Of a DNA stretch of 64,000 nucleotides, positions 1,855 through 47,649 are shown piece by piece (the first letter of the stretch is position 1; every line of letters begins with the position of its first letter). The notes beneath the pieces were generated by a model. The model was not told the DNA's origin, searched no databases, and worked only from the letters and a program-made list of their open reading frames with translations. Where the stretch lies: the NCBI GenBank assembly GCA_048939625.1, contig JBHLPH010000003.1, positions 64,001 to 128,000 on the forward strand, in the 5' to 3' direction. Made by a program: the position numbers and the translations under genes. The DNA comes from Promethearchaeota archaeon. GTDB taxonomy: Archaea > Asgardarchaeota > Hermodarchaeia > Hermodarchaeales > Hermodarchaeaceae.

Positions 1855-3180
1855 ATGGCGAAGGCAGAATTCTTTTGTACCGTAAGACTACCATTCTTAC
1901 GTCAGACTCATTTGGATGTGACGATGGTGGATACCGTTAGTTTTCCTTACGGAAAGGAACAGGTTCAATTGAAGATTCCAGACCGCAATTTTCTCGGCTT
2001 TTTAGACGCCAAACCAATGAAAGGAACCGCCAATCCAAACCAGGTAGTAACTGAGGCGATTCTGAATCCTATTGGCTCGCCGCAATTAAGTGAAATCGCC
2101 CGGCCAGGACAGACCGCAGCCATAGTCGTTGATGACCACACCCGAGGCTTACCCTGCCATATTCTGATTAACCCCCTCATGGATCAGCTTCGCGAAGCAG
2201 GAATCAAGGAAAAGGATGTCACCATCATTTTTGGAACGGGAACACACAGGGCAACAAACCTAGAAGAACAGCAAGCTCTTCTATGTGATGTCTCCTGTCA
2301 AAGCCACCGCGTTAAAGTTCATAGTTGTGACGCCAAAGATTTGGTCGATGTGGGCACCACCTCGTTTGGAACCAAAGTAGAAATTAACCCAACATTTCAT
2401 GACGCGGATCTTCATTTACTCACCGGAGATATCGGTTATCATTATTATGCGGGATTCGGAGGCGGTCGAAAGAGTGTATTACCTGCAATAAGTAGCCGTG
2501 CCACTATCAACAAAAATCACGGCATGTTAACAGACCCCAAGGCAACTACCGGAAATCTCGAAGATAATCCCATCCACCTTGATATGACTGAAGCAGCCCG
2601 TCTAGCCCGAACCGATTTTATCGTTAATTTCGTACGGAACACAAACAAAGAAATTGTCACGGCTTATGCAGGTGACCTAGAACAAGCGTTCTTGGAAGGA
2701 ACCAGTTTCGCCGATTCAATGGGTCGAGTGAAAATCAAGGAAAAGGCAGATATCGTAATCACTAGCTGCGGATATCCGAAGGATATAAACCTCTACCAAG
2801 GAACGAAAGCTATGGTTCACGCACTCGGTGCAGTACGAGATGGTGGTGTACTAATTGCTCTTCTTGAATGTCGTGAGGGAATTGGTAACCAAGTCTTCGA
2901 AGAATGGGCGCACAAGTATCCATCTTTTGATGAATTAAGTCACCAGATTCAGACTAATTTCATCATGGGTGGACACAAGATCTTTTACATGGCCCAAGGT
3001 GCAAACCGCGTGCATCAATATTTGATTTCTAGTCTTGATCCTAAGGAACTGGAACAGTTCTACTATGTTACTCCCTTCAATTCAATTGAGAAAGCCCTAG
3101 AAGCTGCTTTTGAGCAAGTAGGCAACGATTCAAGCGTATGGGCAATGCCCCATGGGACTGATGTTTTGCCCTCGATTTAG
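1855..3180 (+). CDS. larA: LarA-family nickel-pincer (lactate/2-hydroxyacid) racemase; probable start ATG 1924
   Basis: DDHTR, GTGTHR, HYYAGFGGGRKSVLP, GYPKDINLYQGTK, GGHK motifs. Confidence 0.88.
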   Translation: MAKAEFFCTVRLPFLRQTHLDVTMVDTVSFPYGKEQVQLKIPDRNFLGFLDAKPMKGTANPNQVVTEAILNPIGSPQLSEIARPGQTAAIVVDDHTRGLPCHILINPLMDQLREAGIKEKDVTIIFGTGTHRATNLEEQQALLCDVSCQSHRVKVHSCDAKDLVDVGTTSFGTKVEINPTFHDADLHLLTGDIGYHYYAGFGGGRKSVLPAISSRATINKNHGMLTDPKATTGNLEDNPIHLDMTEAARLARTDFIVNFVRNTNKEIVTAYAGDLEQAFLEGTSFADSMGRVKIKEKADIVITSCGYPKDINLYQGTKAMVHALGAVRDGGVLIALLECREGIGNQVFEEWAHKYPSFDELSHQIQTNFIMGGHKIFYMAQGANRVHQYLISSLDPKELEQFYYVTPFNSIEKALEAAFEQVGNDSSVWAMPHGTDVLPSI

Positions 3181-30134: not shown

Positions 30135-30632
30135 TTGATGCGACAATTTCTCTATGCGGACCCTACAGTGTGTGTTGGTTGTCGAATCTGTGAAGCCATC
30201 TGTAGTCTACATTATGAAAAGACAATAAACCCCAAGAAATCACGTATCCGAGTACGTCGAGTCAATCCTGGGCTAGATGTAGTTGTTGCTTGCCGAAATT
30301 GCGATCAGGCTTGGTGTATTGAAGCGTGTCCAGAGGAAGCTCTACGAAAAAATCGGAAAGGGATTGTGATTGTGGATTCGAAGAAATGCAAGGGATGTGG
30401 GGCATGTGTGGAGGCATGCCCTTTTGGAGCGATATTCTTGAACCCTGATACACAAAAAGCCATCAAATGCATTGCATGTGGATTCTGCACGAAATATTGC
30501 CCTGTTGAAACCCTTCGCATTCTGACAGAAGAGGAATTGGCAGCGTTGAAGCAGCAGAAGGTGATTCAACATGAATGTAGAGATCTCCTTGATGAGCTTA
30601 GAATAGAAGAAGCTGAGGGGGGTGAGAGCTGA
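30135..30632 (+). CDS. Polyferredoxin (4x[4Fe-4S]) small subunit of AOR-family enzyme
   Basis: Four Cys clusters (DmsB/HydN type); stop overlaps the AOR start. Confidence 0.9.
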   Translation: MMRQFLYADPTVCVGCRICEAICSLHYEKTINPKKSRIRVRRVNPGLDVVVACRNCDQAWCIEACPEEALRKNRKGIVIVDSKKCKGCGACVEACPFGAIFLNPDTQKAIKCIACGFCTKYCPVETLRILTEEELAALKQQKVIQHECRDLLDELRIEEAEGGES

Positions 30633-32554
30633 TGGGGAAGAAAGCGAAGCTTGGTGGATATTCAGGGCAGCAGTTACATGTGGATATGACAAAAGAAACA
30701 TGTAAGCCGGTCCCAATTGACAAAGATTTAGCTCTCATGTATCTTGGCGGACAAGGCTTTGCCTCACGAATTATGTATGATCACGTTGGACCAACAACTG
30801 ACCCACTGAGTCCTGATAATATCCTCATTTGGGCAACAGGTCCCTTCACGGGGACATTATGGCCTCAAGCAGCCCGTTATGTTGTAGCAGCTAAATCGCC
30901 TTTGACAGGCATCTTTGGTGAAGCCCATTCAGCGGGGCATTGGGGACCCGAACTCAAATTCGCAGGGTTTGACACAATCATCGTAACTGGACGGGCAAAA
31001 AAACCGCTTTACTTAATTGTTGATAATGGTTCAGCCAGATTAGTCGATGCTCAGGATCTATGGGGGAGGAATACATCCGAGACTGAAGACATGATTAAAG
31101 AAGCGCAAGGTGATCCAAACTTTCGCGTCTCTTGCATCGGGCAAGCAGGAGAAAATCTTGTCAGATTTGCCGCAATAATCAATGACTATGATCGAGCCGC
31201 CGCTCGCTCTGGTATTGGTGCTGTGGCAGGAAGTAAACGGCTCAAAGCAGTTGCAGTCCGAGGGGGACAAGATATTCCTATTGCGAAGCCTGATCGCTAC
31301 CTTGATGTAATTGATGAATTGCATCGAAAAATGCTGGCAAGCCCCTTCACGGCTAGTCGGGCTATGTATGGGACAACTAACTTAGTTGAACTCATGCAAG
31401 AAATCGGTCGGCTTCCTAGCTACAATATGCGTTCTGGCGTGTTTGCTGAATATCAGAAAATCAGTGGTGAAACAATTCGAAAGAAGTACCTTGTAAAACC
31501 ACGCGCAGATTTTGCATGTTTACAACGTTGTGGGCGATACACACGGGTCAAAACGGGTCCCTATGCTTATTGTGGAGGATCTCCTGAATATGAAACTCAG
31601 GCAGCTATGGGGAGTCGATGTGGAAATGATAATCTTGAATCCATTCTCTATGGACACCATTTAAGCAACCTATATGGGATGGATACGATCTCAACCGGCG
31701 CGACTATTAGTTGGGCGATGGAAGCCTGGGAAGAGGGACTTATTACTGCTGAAGATACAGGCGGCATTGATTTGAGTTGGGGGAACCATGAATCGATTAT
31801 CAAACTAATCCACATGATCGCGAAACGTGAGGGATTTGGTGACATTTTAGCCGAAGGGAGTTTCCGTGCTGCACAACGCATTGGAAGAGGTACTGAGAAA
31901 TTCGTAATGCATTGCAAGAAACAAGAAATCGCTGGACAAGAACCCCGTGCACAAAAATCAATGGGATTAGCAGCGGCCACAGCAGCGCGTGGTGCGGATC
32001 ATCTCTATGCATTTCCTGTTCTTGATGAGGTCGGATTTGATGAAGAAATCGGAATACGATATGGCACAGAATACCTTCCGGAAATTGGCGACCGCCTTGA
32101 TCCGAAATATAAGGGCATCATGGTGAAAGAAAATGAAGACTTTTGTGCTGTCGTTGAATCACTGGGTGTCTGTAAATATGGAACCCTAATTCCTCCTGTC
32201 CTCTTTTACGAAGATGTTGTAAAAGCCTTTGATGTGACGGTGGGTGTCGCGATAACAGAGAAACAATTACGAGCAATAGGAGAAAGGATCGTCAACCTGA
32301 ATCGTTGTTTCAATGTGCGTGAAGGTATTCGCCGAAAGGACGACTCATTACCAGCCCGGCTAACTGATACTCCTGCTCCAGAAGGTCCATCAAAAGGGCA
32401 GATAGTCGAATTAGAACAGATGCTCGATGAATACTACGAATTACGTGGATGGCGACTGAAAGACGGGCTTCCCACTAAGCATGTATTACAGCGTTTAGGG
32501 CTTGAAGACTTAATCACTGATCTCGAAAAATATGGTATAATTTTACCTGAATAA
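30632..32554 (+). CDS. Aldehyde:ferredoxin oxidoreductase (W-pterin, WOR) family enzyme, copy 1
   Basis: KSPLTG, LKFAGFD, AARSGIGAV.GSKRLKA, GMDTISTG, RGADHL, MLDEYYELRGW. Confidence 0.93.
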   Translation: MGKKAKLGGYSGQQLHVDMTKETCKPVPIDKDLALMYLGGQGFASRIMYDHVGPTTDPLSPDNILIWATGPFTGTLWPQAARYVVAAKSPLTGIFGEAHSAGHWGPELKFAGFDTIIVTGRAKKPLYLIVDNGSARLVDAQDLWGRNTSETEDMIKEAQGDPNFRVSCIGQAGENLVRFAAIINDYDRAAARSGIGAVAGSKRLKAVAVRGGQDIPIAKPDRYLDVIDELHRKMLASPFTASRAMYGTTNLVELMQEIGRLPSYNMRSGVFAEYQKISGETIRKKYLVKPRADFACLQRCGRYTRVKTGPYAYCGGSPEYETQAAMGSRCGNDNLESILYGHHLSNLYGMDTISTGATISWAMEAWEEGLITAEDTGGIDLSWGNHESIIKLIHMIAKREGFGDILAEGSFRAAQRIGRGTEKFVMHCKKQEIAGQEPRAQKSMGLAAATAARGADHLYAFPVLDEVGFDEEIGIRYGTEYLPEIGDRLDPKYKGIMVKENEDFCAVVESLGVCKYGTLIPPVLFYEDVVKAFDVTVGVAITEKQLRAIGERIVNLNRCFNVREGIRRKDDSLPARLTDTPAPEGPSKGQIVELEQMLDEYYELRGWRLKDGLPTKHVLQRLGLEDLITDLEKYGIILPE

Positions 32555-32646
32555 AACGACGCAAAACCGACGCGGAAGCAAGGTTTAAATTAAAACCTCA
32601 TGAGATTGAATTATCCGCGGGGCGTTCTCGGGGCAACCCCTATCAC

Positions 32647-33357
32647 TTGAATGGGTCGAAAATAAAGGATTTTGATAAAATGAAAGTACTCGTTACAGGA
32701 CCGCATTTATCAGGAAAAAGCTACCTCATTAAACAACTCGCTGAAGGGAACGTAATCAACATTCAGGCAAACGGTACAACAGTTGGCCTTGACCATGGTG
32801 TCGCTGAGGTATTTGGAGTTCCTGTTCGTTTGTTTGGTACACCGGGATTAGCCCGGTTCAAAGTTTTACGTAGAATCATTTCCGAAGGTGCTGATGGCAT
32901 TATCTTTGTGGTGGATGCAAGTAAACCGGATGGTGATGCTGAAGCCCGTTATATTTGGACAGAAATTAGCGATCTGCTTCCAAACGTTCCCTGTATTGTC
33001 GCTGCAAATAAACAGGATTTAAGGGCTTCCAGAACACCCGATAGAATCCGTAAGGATTTTAGTTTCATGGTCGGTGTTCCTGTAATTCCTATTAGTAATA
33101 AAACTGAATACAACTTGGACAAACTGCTTCCAGCTATGGTGATGCTTATTGTTTATGAATGGAGCCCGATTCTCCGAGCCTTTGGAGCCACAGGAAAAAC
33201 AGGTTTCGTGAATCTTGCAAAGAATCTTCATGTCAGTGAAAGCCAAGTCCGGAATTATTTGCGTTGGTTTGAACTTCGAAAATTAGTCATTGTGGACTGG
33301 GATAAAGAAACAGCACATGTGGCACCAGGCGTAGTTAAAATCCTTGCCCAACGATAA
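32647..33357 (+). CDS. Small Arf/MglA-like GTPase with C-terminal winged helix (probable start ATG 32680)
   Basis: GPHLSGKS, TTVGLD, FGTPG, NKQD; HTH-like LAKNLHVSESQVRNYL. Confidence 0.8.
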   Translation: MNGSKIKDFDKMKVLVTGPHLSGKSYLIKQLAEGNVINIQANGTTVGLDHGVAEVFGVPVRLFGTPGLARFKVLRRIISEGADGIIFVVDASKPDGDAEARYIWTEISDLLPNVPCIVAANKQDLRASRTPDRIRKDFSFMVGVPVIPISNKTEYNLDKLLPAMVMLIVYEWSPILRAFGATGKTGFVNLAKNLHVSESQVRNYLRWFELRKLVIVDWDKETAHVAPGVVKILAQR

Positions 33358-33402
33358 CAAAGTTAAAAGCTTGAACTGTATGCTTGAATCCAGGGAATTA
33401 GA

Positions 33403-34176
33403 ATGACAAAAACCGGTCCGGTTTGGAAAAGCATCCTCAAAATCATCGAAGACGAAAAGGTTGCCCATTTAACACTAATCGATCCTGACCCTATGAAACA
33501 ATCCGCTGAAAAAGCAGGTGAGATAGCTAATCTCGCCGAGAAGGCAGGAAGTAATGGCATCATGGTTGGCGGCTCAACTGCTTTTGGCATTATTGATGAG
33601 ACAGTGGAAGAGATTAAGAAACACGTTAATATTCCTGTAATTTTATTCCCTGGGAATGTTTCAGGGCTTTCACATTCGGCGGATGCTGTTTTCTTCATGA
33701 GTCTTCTGAATGCTCGAACCACCTACTGGATGATAGATGCTCAAACTCTCGGGGCGCGTCACATCAAAGGCTATAATATTGAACCCATCTCGATGGCCTA
33801 CCTTATTGTCCAACCCGGAGGCACCGCAGGATTTGTGGGCGACGCACGACTGCTCCCTCGGGATAAACCAGAAATCGCACTCGGCTACTCATTAGCCGCG
33901 CAGTACATGGGATTCAAATTCATCTATCTTGAAGCCGGTTCTGGTGCTGAAAATGCGGTTCCCCTTAACATGATTAAATTAGTTTCGAAAACTATTGATG
34001 TTCCCCTAGCTGTTGGTGGAGGAATCTACACCCCCGAGCAGGCAGCCAAAGCCTCTGCGGCAGGTGCAGATATCATCGTGCAAGGAACTATTATAGAACG
34101 CACAATTCTGAAAGATAGGGGCAAGGAGTTATCAGCTACAGTGCAGGCTATGCGCCAGGCCAAGAAAAGTAGCTAA
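33403..34176 (+). CDS. Geranylgeranylglyceryl phosphate synthase
   Basis: LIDPD, MVGGS, ILFPG, YLEAGSGA, VGGGI. Confidence 0.95.
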   Translation: MTKTGPVWKSILKIIEDEKVAHLTLIDPDPMKQSAEKAGEIANLAEKAGSNGIMVGGSTAFGIIDETVEEIKKHVNIPVILFPGNVSGLSHSADAVFFMSLLNARTTYWMIDAQTLGARHIKGYNIEPISMAYLIVQPGGTAGFVGDARLLPRDKPEIALGYSLAAQYMGFKFIYLEAGSGAENAVPLNMIKLVSKTIDVPLAVGGGIYTPEQAAKASAAGADIIVQGTIIERTILKDRGKELSATVQAMRQAKKSS

Positions 34177-34492
34177 GAGTCGAATAATACCCCAATAAAC
34201 TGCTGGCTCCACCACCTATCGGAGGAAATATCGCTACAACATCTCCATCAGTTAAAGGTGTTTGTAGTCCTTTTTGGAGTCTGATGTGTCGTCCATTAAC
34301 GAGAACATGGAAATAAGATTTGAGTGAGCCATCAGGTTCTAAGACCATTTTTTTGAATTTTTCTCCGAATCTTTCACTGAGAATGTCAATGACTTCTTGG
34401 ACAATTTCTGCTTTGAGTTGGGTTTCTCGGACTCCAGTTAGGGCACGGAGACTAGTGAACATGCGAACTGTGACCTGTGGCTTTTTGGTCAT
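34148..34492 (-). CDS. MoaD/ThiS/SAMP ubiquitin-like protein with C-terminal extension
   Basis: VLVNGRHI...LTDGDVVAIFPPIGGG followed by 19 further residues. Confidence 0.85.
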   Translation of the reverse strand: MTKKPQVTVRMFTSLRALTGVRETQLKAEIVQEVIDILSERFGEKFKKMVLEPDGSLKSYFHVLVNGRHIRLQKGLQTPLTDGDVVAIFPPIGGGASSLLGYYSTLSYFSWPGA

Positions 34493-34507
34493 AGGTTTGT
34501 TCTCACC

Positions 34508-35695
34508 TCATCCACTGGTTTGGAAGGAGAGGGCGCGGTGGGGGCAGATGCTCACACAGACACCGCAGCCATAACAGAGTTCGGAATCCACTTGGGCTTT
34601 TTTGGTTTTTGGGTTGACGGCTATTGCAGAATATGTACAGGATTTATTGCAGAGTCCACAGCCTGAACAGGCTTCTTCATCCACAGTTGGAGGAAGACTT
34701 TCGATTCGGAGTGTTTCTTTGGGAAGATGTTTAAGAGCAACACCACGAACGTCAAGGGGGGAGTCGTGCCCATGGTTTTGGAGGAATTCAGCAATTTCGG
34801 TAGCGATGCGTCCATATACGGAGTGACCTTCCAAGATAGCTGCCGTACACACTTGGACTGCTGTGGCTCCACACATGAAGAACTCGATGGCATCGGCACC
34901 AGTGCTTACTCCACCAACGCCGATGACTGGTTTGGATGTTCCACGGGCAATATCTGCAACACAGCGGACCGCGAGTGGTTTGATAGCAGGTCCCGAAAGC
35001 CAACCAACGCCTCCCGGACCACCAAGCAGGGGACGCCTTGTTTCGATATCAATGTGCAAACAGGGTCCTAGAGTGTTAATTGCAACAAATCCATCAACAT
35101 ATTTCTCGACTGCCTTTGTGAAAATTGTCAGGTCTTTGACATGGGGACTCATTTTTGCAAAGACTGGGATTTCGACGGCTTCCTTAATCGTTTTAGCGAC
35201 TTGGTTGAACACTTTGGGATCTGTTTCAATGTAATGGGTGCTGAATTCTATACCGTCGACACCCGCTTTTTCAACAAGAGGAGCAAGTTTCTGCAATTCG
35301 TCAGGAGTATAGCCTACAGAGGCAATCAGAGAAAGCCCTGCTTCCTTTGCTCGAGGGTACTCATGCTTAAGCCATTTTTTAAATGGTTTATCGCTCCAAA
35401 GTTCATGGTTCAATAAACCGTACGCACCGCGTACTCGTATTCGTTCAAAATGAACCACTTGGTTTTGCATGGCTGTAGCAAGAAGCCATTGGCTATGACC
35501 ACGGTCAAGCGTTTGCATATTAGGTCGGGGAACTTCGGCAGGTTTGATACTGATTGTTTTTGCAACTAAGCCACCTACTCCACCTCTAGCCGCCTGGAGT
35601 AGCGTCTCCCCATCCCGGCTAGTTGGTCCTGCCGCAGTTAACACGGGGTTTCGAAGCGGAATACCGGCAATATCAACATTCAAATTTACAGTCAT
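34508..35695 (-). CDS. Dihydropyrimidine/dihydroorotate dehydrogenase-like (PreA-type) FMN enzyme with C-terminal 2x[4Fe-4S]
   Basis: NPVLTAAGP, VAKT, FAKMSP, AINT, WLSGPAIKP, GVGGV, AVQVCT; two CxxCxxCxxxC motifs. Confidence 0.85.
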   Translation of the reverse strand: MTVNLNVDIAGIPLRNPVLTAAGPTSRDGETLLQAARGGVGGLVAKTISIKPAEVPRPNMQTLDRGHSQWLLATAMQNQVVHFERIRVRGAYGLLNHELWSDKPFKKWLKHEYPRAKEAGLSLIASVGYTPDELQKLAPLVEKAGVDGIEFSTHYIETDPKVFNQVAKTIKEAVEIPVFAKMSPHVKDLTIFTKAVEKYVDGFVAINTLGPCLHIDIETRRPLLGGPGGVGWLSGPAIKPLAVRCVADIARGTSKPVIGVGGVSTGADAIEFFMCGATAVQVCTAAILEGHSVYGRIATEIAEFLQNHGHDSPLDVRGVALKHLPKETLRIESLPPTVDEEACSGCGLCNKSCTYSAIAVNPKTKKAQVDSELCYGCGVCVSICPHRALSFQTSG

Positions 35696-37632
35696 TAATC
35701 TTCCACCAATTTACCCATTTTTGCTAAATCGTCTGCAACATCGCTCAATCCCAATCGGACGAGTTCTGATCGCTTTGGAAGTCCATCTTTTGACCAATTT
35801 CGCACCTCATAATACTCGTCAAGCATTGGTTCTAGGTTACACACTTGTCCCTTTGCAGGACCTTCGGGAATGGGTTCTTCAGTGAAGCGTGGGTGTAGTT
35901 GTTCGTTTTCACGGGTTACTCCTTCTCGGACGTTGAAACAACGTCGAAGATTACTTATGCGTTCAGCAATTATGCGGAGTTGATTTACGTCCCCAAATTC
36001 CTTGATTCCTGTAAGAGGTGCAAGCATCTCAGCAATAAGATCAAAGTAATAGATAGGAGGCCACATGCTACCATATTTGCAAAGAATGACACTGTCAATT
36101 ATCACATACAAATCTTCTTGGTCTTTGATAAGATGCCCTTTGTATGTCGTGCTGTGTAAATCCATTACGTCAGCAGCATGATCTTCACCGAACCGTTCAA
36201 TAGCCACGTCAGGAAAACCGAGTTCCTCATAACAACTAAGACTACGTAAGTGATCTGCACCGCGAACGTTAGTAGCATAAGTTAGTCCTACACTTTGCTG
36301 TGGTCGGGGATCTTGACCTGAGGCTTCGAGCCCTTTCACATGAATGGCAAACCGCTCTGCCCCTTTCCCGATTTTCTGAGCTGCCCGCATGGACCCCTCA
36401 GCAAGCATGTTTCCAATCCCTTCACGGTGTGCGATTTTTTCGATAAGTGCTATTATCGTTTTGTCGTTTCCCCACGACAAGTCAAGTCCATCGGCTTCTT
36501 TTGAGGAAATTAACCCGTTTTCAGCTGCTTCCATAAGAAAGGCAATGGTACACCCTGTGCTGATGGTGTCTAGCCCATAACGGTTGCAGAGCTGATTCGC
36601 ATAAAGAATGGACTCAATATTACTATTCAGGCAGTTGCTGCCAAAGGCCATGAGGGTTTCGTATTCGGGTCCCCCGGTTTTAACTTTGTAGGGACCTGAT
36701 TTGACCTGAGACGTAAACTTACATTGTAAGGCGCATCCAAAGCAGGCTTCTCTGCTTGTACGGTAATGCTTCCGAATAGTTTCGGGACCAATGGCGTCAG
36801 CGTCTGGGTAAACACCAGTGGTATGGTTCTTTGTGGGAAGTCGTCCAATTTCCCCGATAGCGGTAACTAGATTTGTGGTTCCGTATTTTCCTAGGGATTC
36901 TTCGTTCATTTCTCCCCATTTTCCCGTTGTTGTCTGTTCGAAGGCTTTGCGGGAAGCTGCAAGGAATTTTCCATGCTGTGCAATTTGGACTCCACCCAAC
37001 CCGCGGGCAGCAATCGCTTTGAGATGTTTACTTCCCATTACAGCACCCCCGCCCGCGCGTCCAGCTGCCCGATAATACGAACCAATAATTGCAGCGTACT
37101 TAACCAGGTTTTCTCCAGCTATACCAATGGATGCGACTTCAATATCATTGTCGCCATGCTCTTTTTTGATGAGATCGGTAGTTTCGGTTGTGTCACGAGT
37201 CCAAAGATGCGAAGCATCCAGAATCTTCACATCTTTATTCTGAACCATAAGGTAGACGGGATTGGGTGCTTTGCCATGAATAAGTAGCATATCAAACCCC
37301 GCATATTTCAGTTGAGGTCCCCAATGTCCTCCACAATGTGCTTCGCCCCATACACCAGTTAGGGGTGATTTGAACGCTACCATGAAACGCCCAGAAGGCG
37401 AGAAGAATGCTCCTGTAACGGGACCAACACCAAATATCAGAGGGTTCTTCGGATCAAGAGGATCGGTTCCAGGTTTAACTCGTTCCCACAGGATTCGTGA
37501 AGCAAAGCCCGTTCCCCCGAGATAACCTTTCGCAAAATCACGATCCAAAGGCAGTATTTCAACCTTAGAATTTGTCAAATCAATATCCGCGATTCGACCA
37601 GCGTATCCATAATAAACGTCTTCCTTACTCAT
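35695..37632 (-). CDS. Aldehyde:ferredoxin oxidoreductase (WOR) family enzyme, copy 2
   Basis: KSPLTG, AAGRAGGGAVMGSK, ACFGCALQC, GLDTISTG, RGADHL. Confidence 0.93.
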   Translation of the reverse strand: MSKEDVYYGYAGRIADIDLTNSKVEILPLDRDFAKGYLGGTGFASRILWERVKPGTDPLDPKNPLIFGVGPVTGAFFSPSGRFMVAFKSPLTGVWGEAHCGGHWGPQLKYAGFDMLLIHGKAPNPVYLMVQNKDVKILDASHLWTRDTTETTDLIKKEHGDNDIEVASIGIAGENLVKYAAIIGSYYRAAGRAGGGAVMGSKHLKAIAARGLGGVQIAQHGKFLAASRKAFEQTTTGKWGEMNEESLGKYGTTNLVTAIGEIGRLPTKNHTTGVYPDADAIGPETIRKHYRTSREACFGCALQCKFTSQVKSGPYKVKTGGPEYETLMAFGSNCLNSNIESILYANQLCNRYGLDTISTGCTIAFLMEAAENGLISSKEADGLDLSWGNDKTIIALIEKIAHREGIGNMLAEGSMRAAQKIGKGAERFAIHVKGLEASGQDPRPQQSVGLTYATNVRGADHLRSLSCYEELGFPDVAIERFGEDHAADVMDLHSTTYKGHLIKDQEDLYVIIDSVILCKYGSMWPPIYYFDLIAEMLAPLTGIKEFGDVNQLRIIAERISNLRRCFNVREGVTRENEQLHPRFTEEPIPEGPAKGQVCNLEPMLDEYYEVRNWSKDGLPKRSELVRLGLSDVADDLAKMGKLVED

Positions 37633-38135
37633 TTCTTGGAACCTCCGGTGATGATGTGAAGATAATCGGCTGCTCTTTTCACGCCTTTCTCCCTAAGTCG
37701 GGCCGTTAATCCACTTGGTTCAAGATACAATATCGCTCCACGAGGACAAAATTGAGCGCACATCGCATACCCCTCACATAAATCGCATTTCACGGTACGA
37801 CCATCCGTTGTATCAATATGGATACCCCCAAATGGACAGGCAATAAGACATTGATGACAACCAATACAATTCTCCTGATTGATACAAACGGCATTCGTCT
37901 GGGGATTACGATAAATCGCATCTGCAGGGCAACTTTCCATACAGAGAGGAACCTCACAATGTTGGCAGATTACTGGGATGTTTACTCCACTTTTTTCATC
38001 ACGTATAATAGTGAGGAGCGCACGGGAAGGGTTGTATTCCTTGTTATGTCGGAAGGAGCAGACGAGCGTGCATATGCCACAGCCCGTGCATTTCTCTGGG
38101 TCGACAACTAGAACCTTATGCGATAACTTGTTCAT
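37629..38135 (-). CDS. Polyferredoxin (4x[4Fe-4S]) small subunit, copy 2
   Basis: Four Cys clusters; overlaps the AOR copy 2 start. Confidence 0.9.
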   Translation of the reverse strand: MNKLSHKVLVVDPEKCTGCGICTLVCSFRHNKEYNPSRALLTIIRDEKSGVNIPVICQHCEVPLCMESCPADAIYRNPQTNAVCINQENCIGCHQCLIACPFGGIHIDTTDGRTVKCDLCEGYAMCAQFCPRGAILYLEPSGLTARLREKGVKRAADYLHIITGGSKK

Positions 38136-38214
38136 AGAAATTCACGCCTTGAAAAATGGGACATAGAAGCCTTAAAGGGTTACTCGATTACCATTATTCA
38201 CCCATTCGGTTTGT

Positions 38215-39561
38215 TTGGAGTGTATTATTATGCGTACACTGATAAAAAACGCATTAATTGTCACGATGGATCCAAAGCGACGTGTCCTCCCCAATGCTGA
38301 CCTTCTAATTGAGGATACGCATATCGCAGCAGTTGGTCCTAATCTGAAGGACTCTGCTGACAGGGTCGTTGATGCCACCGGTCGTATATTGTTGCCTGGA
38401 TTCATTTGTGGTCACACCCACCTCTATGGGATCATGCTTCGTGGAGCCCCCCTGGACATCAAACCTACAACTGATTTTCTCCAGATTCTCGACCGTATAT
38501 GGTGGAAAGTGGATTCAGCATTTGTCAACGAGGACGCTTATGCAAGTGCCTTAGCCTCCTGTTTTGAGTTTATTCGTAGCGGGACCACATGTTTTGCCGA
38601 CACCTATTCAGGACCAGGTTCAATTGAGGGAGTTTTAGATGCTGTTGCAAAAGGTGTCACAGAAACAGGGATGCGAGGAATCTTGGCTTTCGAGGCAACA
38701 GAAAGGAATTCAAAAGAAGAAGGTGAACGTGGACTCAAAGAGAATGTCCGCTTTCTCAAAAAGCTCCAGAAAAAACCGAATGAGCTTCTTTCTGGAATGT
38801 ATAGCCTCCACGCTTCTTTCACATTGAGTGATGAACTTATTCAAAAGACCCGCGAACAGGCTGACCAGTTACCTGCCCCACTTACTATTCATACTAGCGA
38901 AGGACTCATCGATGTGTATCATAATATCGAAAGATATGACAAACGCACCGTTGAGCGCCTGTTTGATTTGGGACTACTTGGATCTGATGTGATATTAGCC
39001 CACTGTGTTCATGTTAATCATGACGAGTTACAACTCATTAAAGCTAGTGGAGCCACAGTTGCCCATAACCCCATGAGCAACATGAATAACGCAGTTGGTG
39101 TGACCCCCGTCAAAGAAATGTATGAATTGGGTATACCGGTGTGTTTAGGCAATGATGGATTCATCTTCGATGCCATTGAAAATATTCGCACGGCTTATCT
39201 CATACATAAGGTTCATCACCTCGATACACGTGTAACAACTCCACAGCAAGTCATTGAGATGGCTACGATTAATGGGGCGCAAGTCTACGGACTTGGAGAT
39301 AAGTTAGGATCCATCGAACCAGGGAAAATGGCAGATTTAGTAATACTCCACCCCAATCCACGAATTACCCCATTACTTCCAACTGGAGTTTATGGATATA
39401 TTGTGTATGGTTGCACCGCACATGACGTAGAGCATGTTTTCGTGAACGGTAAGAAGGTTGTAGAAAATCACCAAGTAGTTTCTGTCGATGCAGAAATTGT
39501 GGAAAAGGCGCTTGGACGCGTCGTACCAACGCTTTGGGAAAAACTTGGAATCGACCTCTAA
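38215..39561 (+). CDS. ssnA: SsnA-like metal-dependent amidohydrolase (probable start ATG 38230)
   Basis: GHTHLYG..RG...FLQILDRIWWKVD, LHASFTLSD, HTSEG, HNPMSNMNNAVG, LGND. Confidence 0.8.
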   Translation: MECIIMRTLIKNALIVTMDPKRRVLPNADLLIEDTHIAAVGPNLKDSADRVVDATGRILLPGFICGHTHLYGIMLRGAPLDIKPTTDFLQILDRIWWKVDSAFVNEDAYASALASCFEFIRSGTTCFADTYSGPGSIEGVLDAVAKGVTETGMRGILAFEATERNSKEEGERGLKENVRFLKKLQKKPNELLSGMYSLHASFTLSDELIQKTREQADQLPAPLTIHTSEGLIDVYHNIERYDKRTVERLFDLGLLGSDVILAHCVHVNHDELQLIKASGATVAHNPMSNMNNAVGVTPVKEMYELGIPVCLGNDGFIFDAIENIRTAYLIHKVHHLDTRVTTPQQVIEMATINGAQVYGLGDKLGSIEPGKMADLVILHPNPRITPLLPTGVYGYIVYGCTAHDVEHVFVNGKKVVENHQVVSVDAEIVEKALGRVVPTLWEKLGIDL

Positions 39562-39845
39562 AGTACTCCTCCAGCTACAGGTGGAAATAAAGCAACGACA
39601 TCGCCATCTGTGAGAGGTGTTTCAAGACCCTTAAGAAGATGAAGCCCTCGGCCATTTAGTAAGACTTTGATGTACCTGCGAAGTTGACCATTTTCATCAA
39701 AAATGATATTGCAAAATTTCTGCCCCCGTTCTTCACAGAGTTGGCTGAGTAAATCACTCACGGTGCGCCCTTTGAAATTCACTGTTAATTGATGAAAACC
39801 GAATTGATCAGAAAATGGCCCAATTGTTCTAACGGAAACGTGCAT
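39558..39845 (-). CDS. MoaD/ThiS/SAMP ubiquitin-like protein ending GG-VL
   Basis: LLNGR...LTDGDVVALFPPVAGGVL*. Confidence 0.88.
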   Translation of the reverse strand: MHVSVRTIGPFSDQFGFHQLTVNFKGRTVSDLLSQLCEERGQKFCNIIFDENGQLRRYIKVLLNGRGLHLLKGLETPLTDGDVVALFPPVAGGVL

Positions 39846-39961
39846 CTATTAGATTCTCCGATTCGGCAAAGGTTTGGCGCTAGATAAACATGCTGGTATC
39901 CTTCTTCTTTGAGAAACCCAATCCTTAATAAGAATAAATCGCATGCTCACTGCTGATTCCC

Positions 39962-41353
39962 ATGGCAGATTTGATTATTGATGAGGCAACTGTCATAACC
40001 GTGGATCCAAAACGACGTATTATTTCCGATGGAGCAGTAGTTGTGGAAGACCAACGGATTATCGCTGTTGGAAAATCTCATGAAATCAAACAGAAGTTTA
40101 GTGCTGACACAAGGATATCAGGAAAGAACAAGATACTCATCCCGGGTCTCATTGACTGTCACGTACACCTTGCTCAAGCCCTGATTCGTGGAACTGCTGA
40201 CGATGTGGATCTAATTCCCTGGCTTCGTGATTACGTTTGGGTTTTACAGGGTAACTTTACACCTTCAGACGGGAAGGTAAGTGCAGAACTTTGCATTGCC
40301 GAGATGCTAAAATCAGGAACTACGAGTTTTCTTGAAAGTATGATTCATAAACGGTATGGGATGGATGGAATAGCTCAGGTCGTTGAAAAAACTGGTATTC
40401 GTGGTTGCCTCTCGAAACTTTTCATGGATTGGACTGGATATGCTGATGAAGAAGCGATTATGTATGAGGGGATGATTGAAGATCCTGAGGAGTGCATCGC
40501 TGAAACTGTATCGATGCATAACAAGTGGCAAGGCGCTGCGGATGGTCGAATCTTTATTTGGTGGGGAGCTCGGACACCTGGTGCGGTTAGCCCTGAATTG
40601 TATCGCCGTGTTGCTGAGTTAGCCCGGAAACGCCATATGGGAATTACCATGCACCTCGGTGAGGTAAAAGAAGACGTCGAGTATACAAAGGCACAGTTCA
40701 ATCAGCTGCCTGCAGAATTCGCACGCGATGTAGGGATGATGGGTGATAACGTCGTGTTAGTACATGGGGTCTGGATCACTCCTGAGGAATTCCCGATTTA
40801 TGTTGAGACTGGAACTCACATGTGTCACTGTCCAGCAAGTAATTCTAAGCTTGCTTCAGGCATTGCGCTTATCCCCGAAATGCTTGCAGCGGGTATCAAT
40901 GTTTGTTTGGGTTGTGATGGAGGACCTAGTAATAACGCCTATGATATGTTCCGAGAAATGTTTCTGGCGGCAGTAATCCATAAAGCACGAACACTGGATC
41001 CCCTGACAATGCCAGCTGAAACCGTTTTAGAAATGGCTACGATTAATGGTGCAAAAGCCATTGGAATGGAAAAAGAGATTGGAAGTATTGAAATTGGAAA
41101 ACGAGCAGACTTGGTACTAATAGATACAACTCAACTAAACCTTGCTCCAACATACAATCCTGTGAGTAATATTATCTATGCAGCGAATGGCTTCAATGTG
41201 TATACTACAATCGTGAATGGGCAAATCCTTGTTCATGAAGGAAAACTTCTGATCATGGATGAAGAGAAAGTTATCGAAACCGCAAGAAAACACGGAGAAC
41301 AACTTCTCGAACGAGCAGAAGTTGAAATTCAAAGTCGATGGAAAACAGAGTGA
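39962..41353 (+). CDS. TRZ/ATZ (COG0402) amidohydrolase, probable nucleobase deaminase
   Basis: DCHVHLAQ, HLGE, HCPASNSKLASG, GCDGGPSNN. Confidence 0.85.
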   Translation: MADLIIDEATVITVDPKRRIISDGAVVVEDQRIIAVGKSHEIKQKFSADTRISGKNKILIPGLIDCHVHLAQALIRGTADDVDLIPWLRDYVWVLQGNFTPSDGKVSAELCIAEMLKSGTTSFLESMIHKRYGMDGIAQVVEKTGIRGCLSKLFMDWTGYADEEAIMYEGMIEDPEECIAETVSMHNKWQGAADGRIFIWWGARTPGAVSPELYRRVAELARKRHMGITMHLGEVKEDVEYTKAQFNQLPAEFARDVGMMGDNVVLVHGVWITPEEFPIYVETGTHMCHCPASNSKLASGIALIPEMLAAGINVCLGCDGGPSNNAYDMFREMFLAAVIHKARTLDPLTMPAETVLEMATINGAKAIGMEKEIGSIEIGKRADLVLIDTTQLNLAPTYNPVSNIIYAANGFNVYTTIVNGQILVHEGKLLIMDEEKVIETARKHGEQLLERAEVEIQSRWKTE

Positions 41354-41448
41354 ACTACCTTTGTAAGATTGCAGGGGTTTTCATCGAGTCCCCCTCAATT
41401 CAAAATTAGCGTGATAGCAGATTAATTCTTTAAAGCGATTCAATTAAA

Positions 41449-42567
41449 TTGAAAAGATTAAAAGGACCTCTCGATTTAGTCGCAGTAATTCAAGGTGACT
41501 CAAATATGGGTGTTAATATAGTTGGTAAATACCATGGCCGTGATTGGTTGACTATCCAGGAATGGAGCCAAGAAGATTTACAAACGTTGATTGATGCAGC
41601 AATCGAAATAAAAGAGCTGCAAAAGGCACGAAAACCCCATGATTATCTTGCCAGACAAACCTTGTTTATGATTTTCTTCAATCGATCTTTACGAACTCGA
41701 AACTCATTCGAGGCAGGCATGACTCAAATGGGTGGTCACGCCCATTTCCTCTCTCCGCAGGATGTTTATCGACCTGCTCTGCCTGATGATGAAGAAGCAT
41801 ATACCAGTGAAAGGATTTCAGATGTAGCACGAGTTCTAGCACGGATGGGCGATGGGATTGCGATTCGCATTTATGGATCACACGCTAAGTGGATTTATGG
41901 TCGCGGTCACCGCATTCTTCGTGAATTTGCTAAATGGTCAGATATTCCCATTATTAACATGGAAGATGACGTTTATCATCCCTGCCAAGCGATGGCGGAC
42001 ATGCAAGCTATTCAAGAACATTCACCCAATGTGCAAGGAAAAAAGTTCGTCATGAGTTGGGCCTATAGCCCGAGTACGCAAAAACCACTTGCTGTTCCAC
42101 AGAGTGGGATATTGATGGGTACTAAATGGGGAATGGATACGGTATTGGCTCATCCAAAAGGCTTTGAACTGGATCCGAAAATCATTGAGATGTGTGAGAA
42201 AAACGTTGCCGAGTATGGAGGGTCCTTTGAAATAACTAATGATATGGAGGAAGCTTTCGCTGGTGCTCATTACGTATATCCAAAGTGTTGGACAAGTAAA
42301 CATCACATTCCTCCGATTGCTCCCGCCGAGGACTGGGAGGGCGCTAAGAAGCTATTTGAAGCAAATAAGGATTGGATTGCGACTCCAGCGAAAATGGATC
42401 TTGGAGCAAAAGGCGTCAAGTATATGCATTGTTTACCAGCGGATCGGGGGTTTGAAGTAGCCGATGAAGTCTTAGATGGCAAATGGAGCATCGCGTTTGA
42501 TGAAGCTGAAAATCGACTCCATACTCAGAAAGCCATTATGGCTGCAATTATGGGTCAACCCCAGTAA
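41449..42567 (+). CDS. YgeW/AOTCase-like carbamoyltransferase (probable start ATG 41506)
   Basis: SLRTRNSF, HPCQ, SWAYSPSTQKPLAVPQ (YgeW-like), HCLPADRG, AENRLH. Confidence 0.85.
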   Translation: MKRLKGPLDLVAVIQGDSNMGVNIVGKYHGRDWLTIQEWSQEDLQTLIDAAIEIKELQKARKPHDYLARQTLFMIFFNRSLRTRNSFEAGMTQMGGHAHFLSPQDVYRPALPDDEEAYTSERISDVARVLARMGDGIAIRIYGSHAKWIYGRGHRILREFAKWSDIPIINMEDDVYHPCQAMADMQAIQEHSPNVQGKKFVMSWAYSPSTQKPLAVPQSGILMGTKWGMDTVLAHPKGFELDPKIIEMCEKNVAEYGGSFEITNDMEEAFAGAHYVYPKCWTSKHHIPPIAPAEDWEGAKKLFEANKDWIATPAKMDLGAKGVKYMHCLPADRGFEVADEVLDGKWSIAFDEAENRLHTQKAIMAAIMGQPQ

Positions 42568-42582
42568 TAGGTGCACGCAGAT

Positions 42583-43602
42583 TTAGAGCAAGTTATCCTC
42601 GCTCATTACTAACGAGAGAAGCCCCTTCTGTAGATGCAACCGATTCTCTGCCTGATCAAAGATAACACTTTGAGGGCTGTCGACAACTTCGTCAGTGGCT
42701 TCCTCACCACGAAAGACAGGAAGACAATGCATATAGATAGCATCTTTGCTAGCTAAATCCATAAGTTCGGAATTACAAATCCAGTCTTGATATTTCTCAT
42801 GGAGTTGGGCTTCCGTTTCTTCCCCCCATTTATCTATGCCGACGGCTGAGCATTCTGCACTCATCCATGACCGCGGATAGACAACGTGAGCACCCGAGTA
42901 TGCATCTTTGATATTATTGGTTATGGAAAAGTCGCCGCCAGACTCATGGGCATTTTGATGACACCATTCCATAATTTCCGGGTCTAATTCGAAACCCGGA
43001 GGATGAGCAAGCGTAACATCCATTCCAAATCGTGTAGCCGTTAGAATAGCACTCTGCACACTACACCATGAGCGGGAGTGACGGCTATATGCCCATGAAA
43101 ATAAGAACTTCTTTCCTTGTATTTTCGGAAATTTCTCTTGTACTGTCATCAGGTCGGTGAGCGATTGGCAGGGATGAAACTTGTCATCTGCCATATTGAT
43201 AATGGGTATGTCAGAATATTTAGCATAGTCACGTAAGACTTGGTTGCCCCGTCCATAGATGTATCCAACCGCTTTTTCAAGAATACGAATACCGATACCG
43301 TGACCATATCGAGCTAGTGTGTTCGCAGTGTCTTTCACACTTTCTCCTTCACCAAGTCGCATCGCACCAGGTTCAAGGAATTGCGCGTGTCCACCTAGTT
43401 CGGTTAAAGCCGCTTCAAAGCTGGCGCGAGTTCGTGTGCTGGTATTGTAAAAAAGCATGAAAAACGTCTTATCCGATAAAAGGTGTGGCGATTTTCCTGC
43501 CTTGGTTTTTTTCTTCAAATCTTTTGCGAATCTGAGAACTGCTTCGAGTTCTTCTCTAGTCCACTCCTGGGTGGTTATCATGTCTCGGCCACGAAGATCC
43601 AT
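42583..43602 (-). CDS. Second YgeW/ornithine carbamoyltransferase-like protein
   Basis: STRTRASF, HPCQ, SWAYS, TRFGMDVTLAHP, HCLP, AENRLH. Confidence 0.85.
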   Translation of the reverse strand: MDLRGRDMITTQEWTREELEAVLRFAKDLKKKTKAGKSPHLLSDKTFFMLFYNTSTRTRASFEAALTELGGHAQFLEPGAMRLGEGESVKDTANTLARYGHGIGIRILEKAVGYIYGRGNQVLRDYAKYSDIPIINMADDKFHPCQSLTDLMTVQEKFPKIQGKKFLFSWAYSRHSRSWCSVQSAILTATRFGMDVTLAHPPGFELDPEIMEWCHQNAHESGGDFSITNNIKDAYSGAHVVYPRSWMSAECSAVGIDKWGEETEAQLHEKYQDWICNSELMDLASKDAIYMHCLPVFRGEEATDEVVDSPQSVIFDQAENRLHLQKGLLSLVMSEDNLL

Positions 43603-46386: not shown

Positions 46387-47649
46387 TTAATTCTGGAGGT
46401 CAAGAGCGTTCTGGAGTTGTTTTAAGTCGGCATCAATTACTGGTGGTTTAGGCATTCGCTGGATCACTACATCCTGATCTTTTAATCCGCCACCAGTAGC
46501 CTCTATTAAGATTGTTTCTGAGGGATCTTGCTCTCCAGAGTCTAGCTGGTCAATGAGACCTGCAAGACCTGTGACGCCTGTGGGTTCTGCGAAAATTCCT
46601 TCATACTTGGCGAGTAATTGTTGAGCTTGAAGAATGGCATCATCTTCAACTGCAATTGCACAACCCTTGGATTTCCGAATGGCGTTGAGCGCCAAATCGC
46701 CATCCCAAGGTAAGGGATCACATAACCCTTCAGCTACGCTATGTGGTGAGGCACACGGAATAATCTTGAAAGGATCCTGGTTAGTACGAAACGCCTGAAC
46801 CAAAGGAGCACACCCTGCTGCTTGGACTGCGACCATTCGTGGACGTGTTTTAACAAGTCCAAGGGTATGAAAATCGCTAAATCCGCGCCATTGACCTCCT
46901 AAAAGGCCCCCCGCCCCCACTTGGACATAGGTTACGTCTGGAACCTCCCATTCTAATTGTTCAAGGATTTCATATCCGAGTGTTTTAGGACCTTCAGCCT
47001 GATAGGGATTGAAAGGGCCAAAGCTAGGACAAGGCGTCCAGCCATAACTGGAGCACGCTTCACGGAGAAGTTTCACGGTTGGATCATCACCTTTATGTAA
47101 TCCCCGTAAACGAACGACTTTCGCGCCGTATAACAGTAATTGTGCAATTTTTCCCATAGGAGCGATATCGGGTACAAAGCAATAACATGTAAATCCGGCT
47201 CGAGCACAATAAGCCGCTAATGCAGCAGCAGCATTGCCGCTACTGGCCGATGCAAGGGTGGTAGCTCCTTGTTCTTTCGCTTTGGACACACCAACCGTCA
47301 TTGGTCGATCTTTGAAAGACCATGTGGGATTACGCGTTTCGTCCTTTATGTATAGTTCACGGAGTCCTAGTTTCTTCGCGAGTCGTTTGCTACGAAGAAG
47401 TGGAGTTCCACCTTCACCAAGGCTTATGATATTTGCACGATTTTCGATTGGGAGTAATTCAAAGTAGCTCCAAACACCTAATGGTCGATTTGCCAGACTT
47501 TTCTTTGTAATAACTTCCCTAAGACGAATGTAATCATAATGAATATCAATGCGTGCTTCACAGCCATGGGTCTTACAAAAGAATGGATTTTCGGAGAGGT
47601 TATACTTAGCGCCACATTTCGGACATCGTAGGTGAGTGACATAGGACAA
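46387..47649 (-). CDS. thrC: Threonine synthase-like PLP enzyme
   Basis: N-terminal CxxC; SLGEGGTP, NPTWSFKDR, ASSGN, EGIFAEP, TGGGLK. Exact function uncertain. Confidence 0.75.
   Translation of the reverse strand: MSYVTHLRCPKCGAKYNLSENPFFCKTHGCEARIDIHYDYIRLREVITKKSLANRPLGVWSYFELLPIENRANIISLGEGGTPLLRSKRLAKKLGLRELYIKDETRNPTWSFKDRPMTVGVSKAKEQGATTLASASSGNAAAALAAYCARAGFTCYCFVPDIAPMGKIAQLLLYGAKVVRLRGLHKGDDPTVKLLREACSSYGWTPCPSFGPFNPYQAEGPKTLGYEILEQLEWEVPDVTYVQVGAGGLLGGQWRGFSDFHTLGLVKTRPRMVAVQAAGCAPLVQAFRTNQDPFKIIPCASPHSVAEGLCDPLPWDGDLALNAIRKSKGCAIAVEDDAILQAQQLLAKYEGIFAEPTGVTGLAGLIDQLDSGEQDPSETILIEATGGGLKDQDVVIQRMPKPPVIDADLKQLQNALDLQN

What the first reader, a model, noticed from the sequence alone, without database searches (positions are those of the whole stretch)
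30135..43602. Candidate archaeal anaerobic purine (nucleobase) degradation system built on AOR-family tungstoenzymes
Seen: within 13.5 kb lie two polyferredoxin+AOR pairs, two ubiquitin-like sulfur carriers, a PreA/DPD-like flavo-FeS enzyme co-transcribed with AOR2, an SsnA-like hydrolase, an HxHxxQ deaminase and two carbamoyltransferases, one with the YgeW-type WAYSPS..KPL.VPQ motif. Known: bacterial anaerobic urate/purine catabolism uses xanthine-dehydrogenase-family enzymes, YgfK (DPD-related), SsnA, HyuA, YgeW, YgeY and DpaL, and yields carbamoyl phosphate. Inference: here W-pterin AOR-family enzymes take the redox role of the Mo-Xdh enzymes, which would be a new substrate class for the family. 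AMP phosphorylase and glycine cleavage genes in the window could supply bases and consume products. Caveats: no HyuA, YgeY or carbamate kinase in the window; the genes span several transcription units; two unrelated genes (GTPase, GGGP synthase) interrupt the cluster; pyrimidine catabolism is an alternative reading.
Basis: partly seen in the sequence, partly recalled or inferred. Interest (0 to 1): 0.85.

Follow-up and report, generated by a model that had tools for sequence, protein, structure and literature searches.

The report
Tungsten-enzyme purine breakdown in archaea
An uncultured Asgard archaeon carries the anaerobic purine-breakdown genes described in gut bacteria in 2025, but it lacks the molybdenum enzymes those bacteria use and has tungsten-type 'aldehyde' enzymes in their place, which predicts a new, untested job for that enzyme family.

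Summary
All genes are present as described; the host is a Hermodarchaeota archaeon. The purine reading is well supported. The 'PreA-like' gene matches UacX, the clostridial 2,8-dioxopurine reductase (39-42% identity, shared motifs, catalytic Cys loop missing), and a true pyrimidine cluster lies elsewhere in the genome. The SsnA-like protein groups with E. coli SsnA. Both AORs belong to one clade with Gln replacing aldehyde-binding Tyr427. Three paralogs of that clade recur with UacX, SsnA, hydantoinase, twin carbamoyltransferases and carbamate kinase in reshuffled clusters of other archaea. No Xdh-family gene was found in 19 family genomes. Among 50 genomes carrying this carbamoyltransferase, 13/13 without Xdh have these AORs, against 7/37 with Xdh. 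Best reading (0.6): the AORs do the purine hydroxylation/dehydroxylation of XDH/DOPDH; this is inferred, never assayed. Main rival: aldehyde oxidation supplying electrons. Caveat: no pterin-cofactor synthesis genes were found in 17 of 19 family genomes, this one included. No paper found; this scan noted the same idea earlier on other genomes.

The parts
30135..30632 (+). WorS polyferredoxin of WOR-A
   Evidence: Fer4 domains; 1-bp overlap with AOR1
30632..32554 (+). WOR-A (AOR1), AOR-family large subunit; T243/E313/H448 kept, Y427 replaced by Q; Asp at the first cluster Cys
   Evidence: orthologs at 55-65% identity in purine clusters of other lineages
34148..34492 (-). MoaD/SAMP-like (WorX-type) protein 1, 19-residue tail after GGG
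34508..35695 (-). UacX-type FMN/2[4Fe-4S] ring reductase (predicted 2,8-dioxopurine reductase), not PreA
   Evidence: 39-42% to Xdh-linked clostridial and Cetobacterium UacX-type proteins vs 29% to E. coli PreA; shared ELWS and STHY motifs; SCP loop absent
35695..37632 (-). WOR-B (AOR2), Y427 replaced by Q; usually directly upstream of UacX
   Evidence: model pLDDT 93, TM 0.90-0.91 to AOR structures
37629..38135 (-). WorS polyferredoxin of WOR-B (16 invariant Cys)
38215..39561 (+). SsnA-clade amidohydrolase (predicted ring opening)
   Evidence: best model SsnA, 385 bits vs cut-off 444; best genome hit of E. coli SsnA; SsnA clade support 0.999
39558..39845 (-). MoaD/SAMP-like protein 2
   Evidence: TIGR01687 above cut-off
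39962..41353 (+). HxHxxQ amidohydrolase, probable aminopurine deaminase; substrate not resolved
   Evidence: orthologs in clusters L197, L200, L204, L246
41449..42567 (+). Catabolic-type carbamoyltransferase CT1 with the YgeW substrate-loop motif
   Evidence: homologs flanked by carbamate kinase in 22 of 80 loci
42583..43602 (-). Carbamoyltransferase CT2, paralog of CT1 (47%), predicted second ureido cleavage in place of YgeY
46387..47649 (-).
   Evidence: in 21 of 67 non-Hermodarchaeota CT1 loci; no homoserine dehydrogenase in 5 genomes searched

Best explanation
The cluster encodes a ferredoxin-linked, reductive 2,8-dioxopurine-type purine catabolic pathway in which AOR-family (WorSL, probably tungsten) enzymes replace the Mo-hydroxylases XDH and DOPDH. 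Proposed flow: deaminases give hypoxanthine and xanthine; three Gln427 WOR paralogs (A and B here, C at G000 C78:16672-18594) add or remove ring oxygens to reach 2,8-dioxopurine, with WOR-B the best candidate for the DOPDH step; UacX reduces the ring; SsnA and a hydantoinase open both rings; CT1 and CT2 phosphorolyse the two ureido groups to carbamoyl phosphate; carbamate kinase (C81) makes ATP; the ThrC-like enzyme releases pyruvate and ammonia. Shown here: gene content, conserved linkage, placement of UacX and SsnA, clade and residue pattern of the WORs, no Xdh found. Inferred: every catalytic assignment, the metal, and which paralog acts at which ring carbon.
For: UacX and SsnA placement. 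Separate canonical pyrimidine locus with a PreA and a dihydropyrimidinase above family cut-offs. No Xdh in 19 family genomes and no XdhA/B/C/D, YgfM, YqeB, YqeC or MocA hit in G000, so the entry steps need another enzyme. One WOR clade with Q427 (core SH-aLRT 99, whole group 77). Among WORs fetched by AOR2 alone, 23/35 Q-type vs 2/30 others have catabolic marker genes within 10 kb; UacX or SsnA in 12/28 vs 0/24 loci. A/B/C paralogs together with UacX in L204, L206, L242 and, with B cut off, L243. The same SsnA subclade sits beside Xdh in Caldarchaeum but beside WORs here. 13/13 Xdh-negative vs 7/37 Xdh-positive CT1-bearing genomes have Q-WORs. Tyr427 is the proposed aldehyde-positioning residue (PMC12096430).
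Against: No WOR is known to act on an N-heterocycle (PMC13328260, PMC12096430). T243, E313 and H448 are intact and a Tyr-to-His AOR still oxidises aldehydes. Seven Xdh-positive genomes also have Q-WORs, and L133 has both in one locus. The 13 Xdh-negative genomes are only 3-4 lineages. About a third of Q-WORs have none of the marker genes nearby (one flanks an acyl-CoA ligase). No cluster-type hydantoinase and no YgeY ortholog was found in G000. moaA/C/E, moeA and tungstate-binding genes were not found in G000, and moaC/moeA in only 2 of 19 family genomes, so cofactor supply is unexplained.
Confidence: 0.6

Rival explanations
1. The cluster degrades purines, but the WORs are aldehyde oxidoreductases (or other donors) that only supply low-potential electrons to UacX, which lacks an NAD(P)H module; the oxopurine substrate is taken up ready-made.
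For: T243/E313/H448 kept; UacX needs a ferredoxin-type donor (bioRxiv 10.1101/2025.05.19.654654); FeS2-AOR2-UacX overlap; Q-WORs coexist with Xdh in Chloroflexi.
Against: The genome has seven other AOR-family genes, including a Y427 type. It does not explain three separately conserved paralogs or Q427 throughout the clade. Without Xdh no known route makes 2,8-dioxopurine. UacX also works in genomes with Xdh and no Q-WOR (L051/L052).
Confidence: 0.2
2. Same architecture, different substrate: modified or oxidised purines (8-oxoguanine, isoguanine, methylated purines) or another fused N-heterocycle such as a pterin.
For: SsnA-like and both carbamoyltransferases fall below their family cut-offs; the deaminase is unassigned, with hits to MTA/SAH, atrazine and 8-oxoguanine hydrolases; some Q-WORs flank AllG, AllH or PurP-like genes.
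Against: UacX motifs are shared with proteins of standard uricolytic-type clusters; adenine deaminase and Bmp-family ABC importers recur in related loci.
Confidence: 0.13
3. Reductive pyrimidine catabolism (PreA, dihydropyrimidinase, ureidopropionate cleavage).
For: Best NCBIfam hit of the flavoprotein is PreA, though below cut-off.
Against: The NxSCP catalytic loop is missing; a separate pyrimidine locus lies at G000 C61:39.7-46.2 kb; pyrimidines need no hydroxylase.
Confidence: 0.04
4. Chance juxtaposition of general aldehyde oxidoreductases with unrelated genes, kept only by synteny in one genus.
For: GTPase, GGGP synthase, TatD and GlmS genes interrupt the region; several transcription units.
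Against: The interrupting genes are absent from the distant clusters, while WOR-UacX-SsnA-CT linkage survives reshuffling in several lineages.
Confidence: 0.03

Closest known systems
Reductive uric acid / 2,8-dioxopurine pathway, C. difficile variant (XdhD, UacX, SsnA, HyuA, UacY, YgeY, YgeX) and E. coli / C. sporogenes variant (YgfK, YgeW, YqeA); bioRxiv 10.1101/2025.05.19.654654, 10.1101/2025.04.24.650524, PMC12990295
   Same: UacX-type reductase, SsnA-clade hydrolase, YgeW-motif carbamoyltransferase, carbamate kinase, hydantoinase and a fold-type II PLP lyase
   Different: No Xdh-family enzyme or its maturation factors found; AOR-family enzymes in the cluster; two carbamoyltransferases and no YgeY; ThrC-like instead of DpaL; described so far only in bacteria
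Class II WORs (WorL + WorS): P. furiosus WOR5/ASOR, C. bescii GOR; AOR sensu stricto (1AOR, 9MQX, 8C0Z)
   Same: Fold (TM 0.90-0.91), cluster ligands, T243/E313/H448, polyferredoxin partner, adjacent ThiS-like WorX
   Different: Y427 replaced by Q and the Y452 position by F or L; distinct clade; purine-catabolic neighbourhood; no characterised member
Class II benzoyl-CoA reductase BamB (AOR-family ring reductase)
   Same: AOR-family scaffold acting on an aromatic ring; 28% identity
   Different: BamB lacks the second-shell residues that AOR1/AOR2 keep; here ring reduction is assigned to UacX

Membership tests
AOR/WOR family, Class II | AFOR_N + AFOR_C domains and AOR fold | tested here: met
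AOR/WOR family, Class II | Adjacent four-cluster WorS gene | tested here: met
AOR/WOR family, Class II | W-bis-pyranopterin cofactor bound | not testable with these tools
   Metal cannot be read from sequence; cofactor synthesis genes not found in G000
AOR sensu stricto (aldehyde oxidising) | Second shell T243, E313, Y427, H448 | tested here: not met
   Y427 is Q in both; the other three are kept
BamB/YdhV clades | Loss of second-shell residues, Cys ligand to metal | tested here: not met
   Second-shell T/E/H kept; the Cys position itself was not mapped
2,8-dioxopurine pathway | Xdh-family entry enzyme (XdhD/DOPDH) | tested here: not met
   0 of 19 family genomes, 72-91% complete
2,8-dioxopurine pathway | YgfK or UacX ring reductase | tested here: met
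   UacX-type by identity, motifs and context of its closest plasmid-borne bacterial relatives; C. difficile UacX itself was not available
2,8-dioxopurine pathway | SsnA | tested here: inconclusive
   In SsnA clade but 385/368 bits vs cut-offs 444/455
2,8-dioxopurine pathway | HyuA hydantoinase | tested here: inconclusive
   Not in the window; the only candidate is the pyrimidine-locus enzyme, 37% to HyuA; present in Thorarchaeota and other distant clusters
2,8-dioxopurine pathway | YgeY and YgeX/DpaL | tested here: not met
   No ortholog found; CT2 and ThrC-like are the proposed substitutes
YgeW (TIGR03316) | Family score and substrate-loop motif | tested here: not met
   Motif present in CT1 but 148 and 163 bits vs cut-off 500; both closer to N-acetylornithine carbamoyltransferase
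PreA / dihydropyrimidine dehydrogenase | NxSCP catalytic Cys loop, family cut-off | tested here: not met
   195 vs 335 bits; loop absent
2,8-dioxopurine pathway | Enzymatic conversion of purines to pyruvate and carbamoyl phosphate | not testable with these tools
   Needs assays

The most novel reading that the evidence does not exclude
A dedicated Gln427 clade of three conserved AOR-family paralogs forms a complete Xdh-free purine hydroxylase/dehydroxylase set, the first N-heterocycle chemistry in this tungsten family, feeding an archaeal pathway that conserves both ureido groups as carbamoyl phosphate; in most Hermodarchaeota it runs on a scavenged pterin cofactor.
Probability: 0.5. Interest if true: 0.85.

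Novelty: new variant of a known kind. Interest (0 to 1): 0.7.

Why it matters
Only five of 92 WOR clades have a defined physiological role (PMC13328260), and none acts on N-heterocycles. This gives a specific, assayable substrate prediction for a wide clade. If true, purine C-H hydroxylation evolved twice on unrelated pterin scaffolds, the 2025 gut-bacterial pathway extends to sediment archaea in a selenium- and Xdh-independent form, and AOR genes in Asgard genomes now read as peptide-fermentation enzymes (PMC8163825) are partly misassigned.

Tried and rejected
Complex prediction of WorS-B with UacX gave no answer (score 0.00): no evidence either way. No RNA holder listed; only DNA contigs could be laid and none spanned the stretch, so expression and co-transcription are untested. 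Sigma-70 promoter/terminator scan was at or below shuffle level and does not suit archaea. The careful IQ-TREE run did not finish; the quick tree was used. Characterised WORs and C. difficile UacX could not be put in the trees, so no number among the 92 clades is assigned. Literature searches for AOR + dioxopurine (0 papers), Hermodarchaeota + purine, and tungsten + purine hydroxylase + archaea found no description (titles and abstract starts only; library incomplete). Rejected as parts: GTPase, GGGP synthase, TatD, GlmS (linked only in Hermodarchaeota), AMP phosphorylase and glycine cleavage genes (real, but distant). A frequent 'cluster 8' appears to be an antisense shadow ORF of the carbamoyltransferase (no family hit).
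Full report
Observation. Close relatives at about 90% identity are labelled Hermodarchaeota or Promethearchaeota, and the gene order is kept in those loci as far as their contigs reach. FeS2-AOR2-PreA-like overlap by 4 and 1 bp, and FeS1-AOR1 by 1 bp. That suggests translational coupling, but no transcript data exist.

The pathway is purine-type. The key gene is the 'PreA-like' flavoprotein. Its best matches among plasmid records (35-40%) lie in clusters of Cetobacterium and Clostridium annotated with ssnA or a related amidohydrolase, ygeY, dpaL, a hydantoinase and xanthine dehydrogenase genes. This is the position of UacX, the FAD-less PydA homolog that replaces YgfK in C. difficile (bioRxiv 10.1101/2025.05.19.654654). 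The window protein shares ELWS and STHY motifs with these proteins, is 39-42% identical to them versus 29% to E. coli PreA, and lacks the NxSCP catalytic loop. The genome has a separate pyrimidine locus (C61:39.7-46.2 kb) with a true PreA, an aminotransferase, a nitrilase-like protein and a dihydropyrimidinase; PreA and the dihydropyrimidinase pass their family cut-offs. The SsnA-like protein is the best genome hit of E. coli SsnA and falls in the SsnA clade, though below the HMM cut-off. CT1 carries the YgeW substrate-loop motif, but CT1 and CT2 score far below the YgeW family and closer to N-acetylornithine carbamoyltransferase. They are a separate subfamily whose homologs sit with carbamate kinase, Xdh subunits, hydantoinase, adenine deaminase and Bmp-type ABC importers. 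Carbamate kinase and adenine deaminase are on contig C81. A ThrC-like PLP enzyme at 46387-47649 occurs in 21 of 67 non-Hermodarchaeota CT1 loci, and homoserine dehydrogenase was not found in five genomes. It is therefore more likely the terminal lyase than a biosynthetic enzyme (inference).

The AORs are a dedicated clade. AOR2 folds as a standard AOR (pLDDT 93; TM 0.90-0.91 to 1AOR, 9MQX, 9G7J). Both keep T243, E313 and H448 of P. furiosus AOR but have Gln for Tyr427, the residue proposed to position the aldehyde (PMC12096430). All Q427 proteins form one group (FastTree 0.85; IQ-TREE SH-aLRT 77, and 99 for the core holding AOR1 and AOR2). Among WORs fetched with AOR2 alone, excluding close Hermodarchaeota orthologs and short flanks, 23 of 35 Q-type versus 2 of 30 others have UacX, SsnA, hydantoinase, carbamoyltransferase, carbamate kinase or adenine deaminase nearby. 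At locus level UacX or SsnA occurs in 12/28 versus 0/24 (Fisher p 1.6e-4, overstated because kin are not independent). Three paralogs recur: A (AOR1), B (AOR2) and C (G000 C78). All three lie together with UacX in L204, L206 and L242 (and L243, where B is cut off), in different gene orders; L204 also holds SsnA, a hydantoinase, both carbamoyltransferases, carbamate kinase and the ThrC-like gene. Thorarchaeota-type genomes cluster A and B with UacX, the deaminase and a hydantoinase, and keep C elsewhere.

Substitution for Xdh. No Xdh-family molybdopterin domain was found in the 19 family genomes, and G000 has no hit for XdhA/B/C/D, YgfM, YqeB, YqeC or MocA. Among 80 CT1 loci, 25 hold Xdh genes and 14 hold Q-WORs, none both. 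Among 50 other CT1-bearing genomes, all 13 without Xdh have Q-WORs (mostly Thorarchaeota, three Bathyarchaeia, one Thermoproteota), against 7 of 37 with Xdh (motifs checked). The same archaeal SsnA subclade sits beside Xdh in Caldarchaeum and beside WORs here. The pattern is strong but rests on few lineages, and Chloroflexi, one Atribacteria genome and one Thermoproteota genome have both systems.

Mechanism (inferred). In bacteria XDH oxidises hypoxanthine and xanthine to urate and DOPDH removes the C6 oxygen. From my own knowledge, these are formally the same hydride-transfer and oxygen-exchange reactions that AORs perform on aldehydes and acids, and Xdh-family enzymes do both kinds. Reaching 2,8-dioxopurine from hypoxanthine needs chemistry at C2, C8 and C6, which would fit three paralogs. 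WOR-B, usually directly upstream of UacX, is the best DOPDH candidate. Oxidative and reductive steps could balance through ferredoxin. UacX, SsnA and a hydantoinase would give 2,3-diureidopropionate, two carbamoyltransferases up to two carbamoyl phosphates (YgeY was essentially absent from these loci), and the lyase pyruvate. Confidence 0.6. The main rival is that the WORs only supply electrons from aldehyde oxidation (0.2).

Gaps. G000 has no cluster-type hydantoinase, so the pyrimidine enzyme would have to serve both routes. moaC and moeA were found in only 2 of 19 family genomes versus 21 of 22 other Asgard genomes. In those two they lie on low-GC contigs with few close orthologs in G000, and that MoeA has only one close relative cluster in the protein database. 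G000 also lacked moaE and tungstate-binding proteins. Either the cofactor is scavenged, as an earlier scan note proposes (e1-5519698; importer not tested by me), or the locus is lost in binning. The metal is therefore unverified.

Novelty. The pathway is known since 2025 in bacteria with Mo enzymes. The 2026 WOR classification does not mention purines, and my searches found no paper on this link. It works like the 2,8-dioxopurine pathway but fails membership on Xdh, YgeY, YgeX and the YgeW cut-off: a new variant of a known kind. This scan's earlier notes reached a similar reading on other genomes; those are unchecked and are not counted as support. Interest 0.7.

Noticed in passing
G000 whole genome; relatives G001-G018: Molybdopterin synthesis genes (moaC, moeA) found in only 2 of 19 Hermodarchaeota genomes although each has 2-16 AOR-family matches; G000 also lacks moaE and TupA/WtpA hits. 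Suggests cofactor scavenging or systematic binning loss.
   Followed up: partly
L191 (G000:C61:39.7-46.2 kb): Reductive pyrimidine locus: FeS protein, PreA without an adjacent PreT, aminotransferase, nitrilase-like protein, dihydropyrimidinase.
   Followed up: partly
L195:8673-10595 (G000:C78:16672-18594): Third Gln427 WOR (paralog C) with its WorS, unlinked here but inside the purine cluster in other archaea.
   Followed up: partly
window 34148-34492 and 39558-39845: Both MoaD-like proteins have tails after the Gly-Gly; tail presence and length vary among relatives, implying trimming by a protease or a role not needing a free C-terminus.
   Followed up: partly
window 31499-31528 (AOR1): First cluster ligand position is Asp rather than Cys; WOR5/ASOR is also reported with three Cys and one Asp; may tune the cluster potential.
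   Followed up: no
L153-L165, L066, L245, L248: A second UacX-like subgroup with a different active-site loop travels with other Q427 WOR subclades and a divergent SsnA in Chloroflexi and Bathyarchaeia; possibly another substrate.
   Followed up: no
L142:7715-9085; L141:6050-6994; L208:16158-18165: Some Q427 WORs lacking the main markers flank a PurP-like gene (DUF1246/DUF1297), an AllH gene, or cyclase plus AllG genes.
   Followed up: partly
L194:8525-10551 (G000:C81): Carbamate kinase divergently paired with a serine/threonine dehydratase-like PLP lyase, a second candidate for the terminal lyase.
   Followed up: no
window 1855-3180: LarA-family nickel-pincer racemase (closest model LarAH6 malate racemase, below cut-off).
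   Followed up: no
L210 (Clostridium novyi plasmid pCN1): A UacX/Xdh purine catabolic cluster lies on the same plasmid as an annotated C2 toxin component gene.
   Followed up: no
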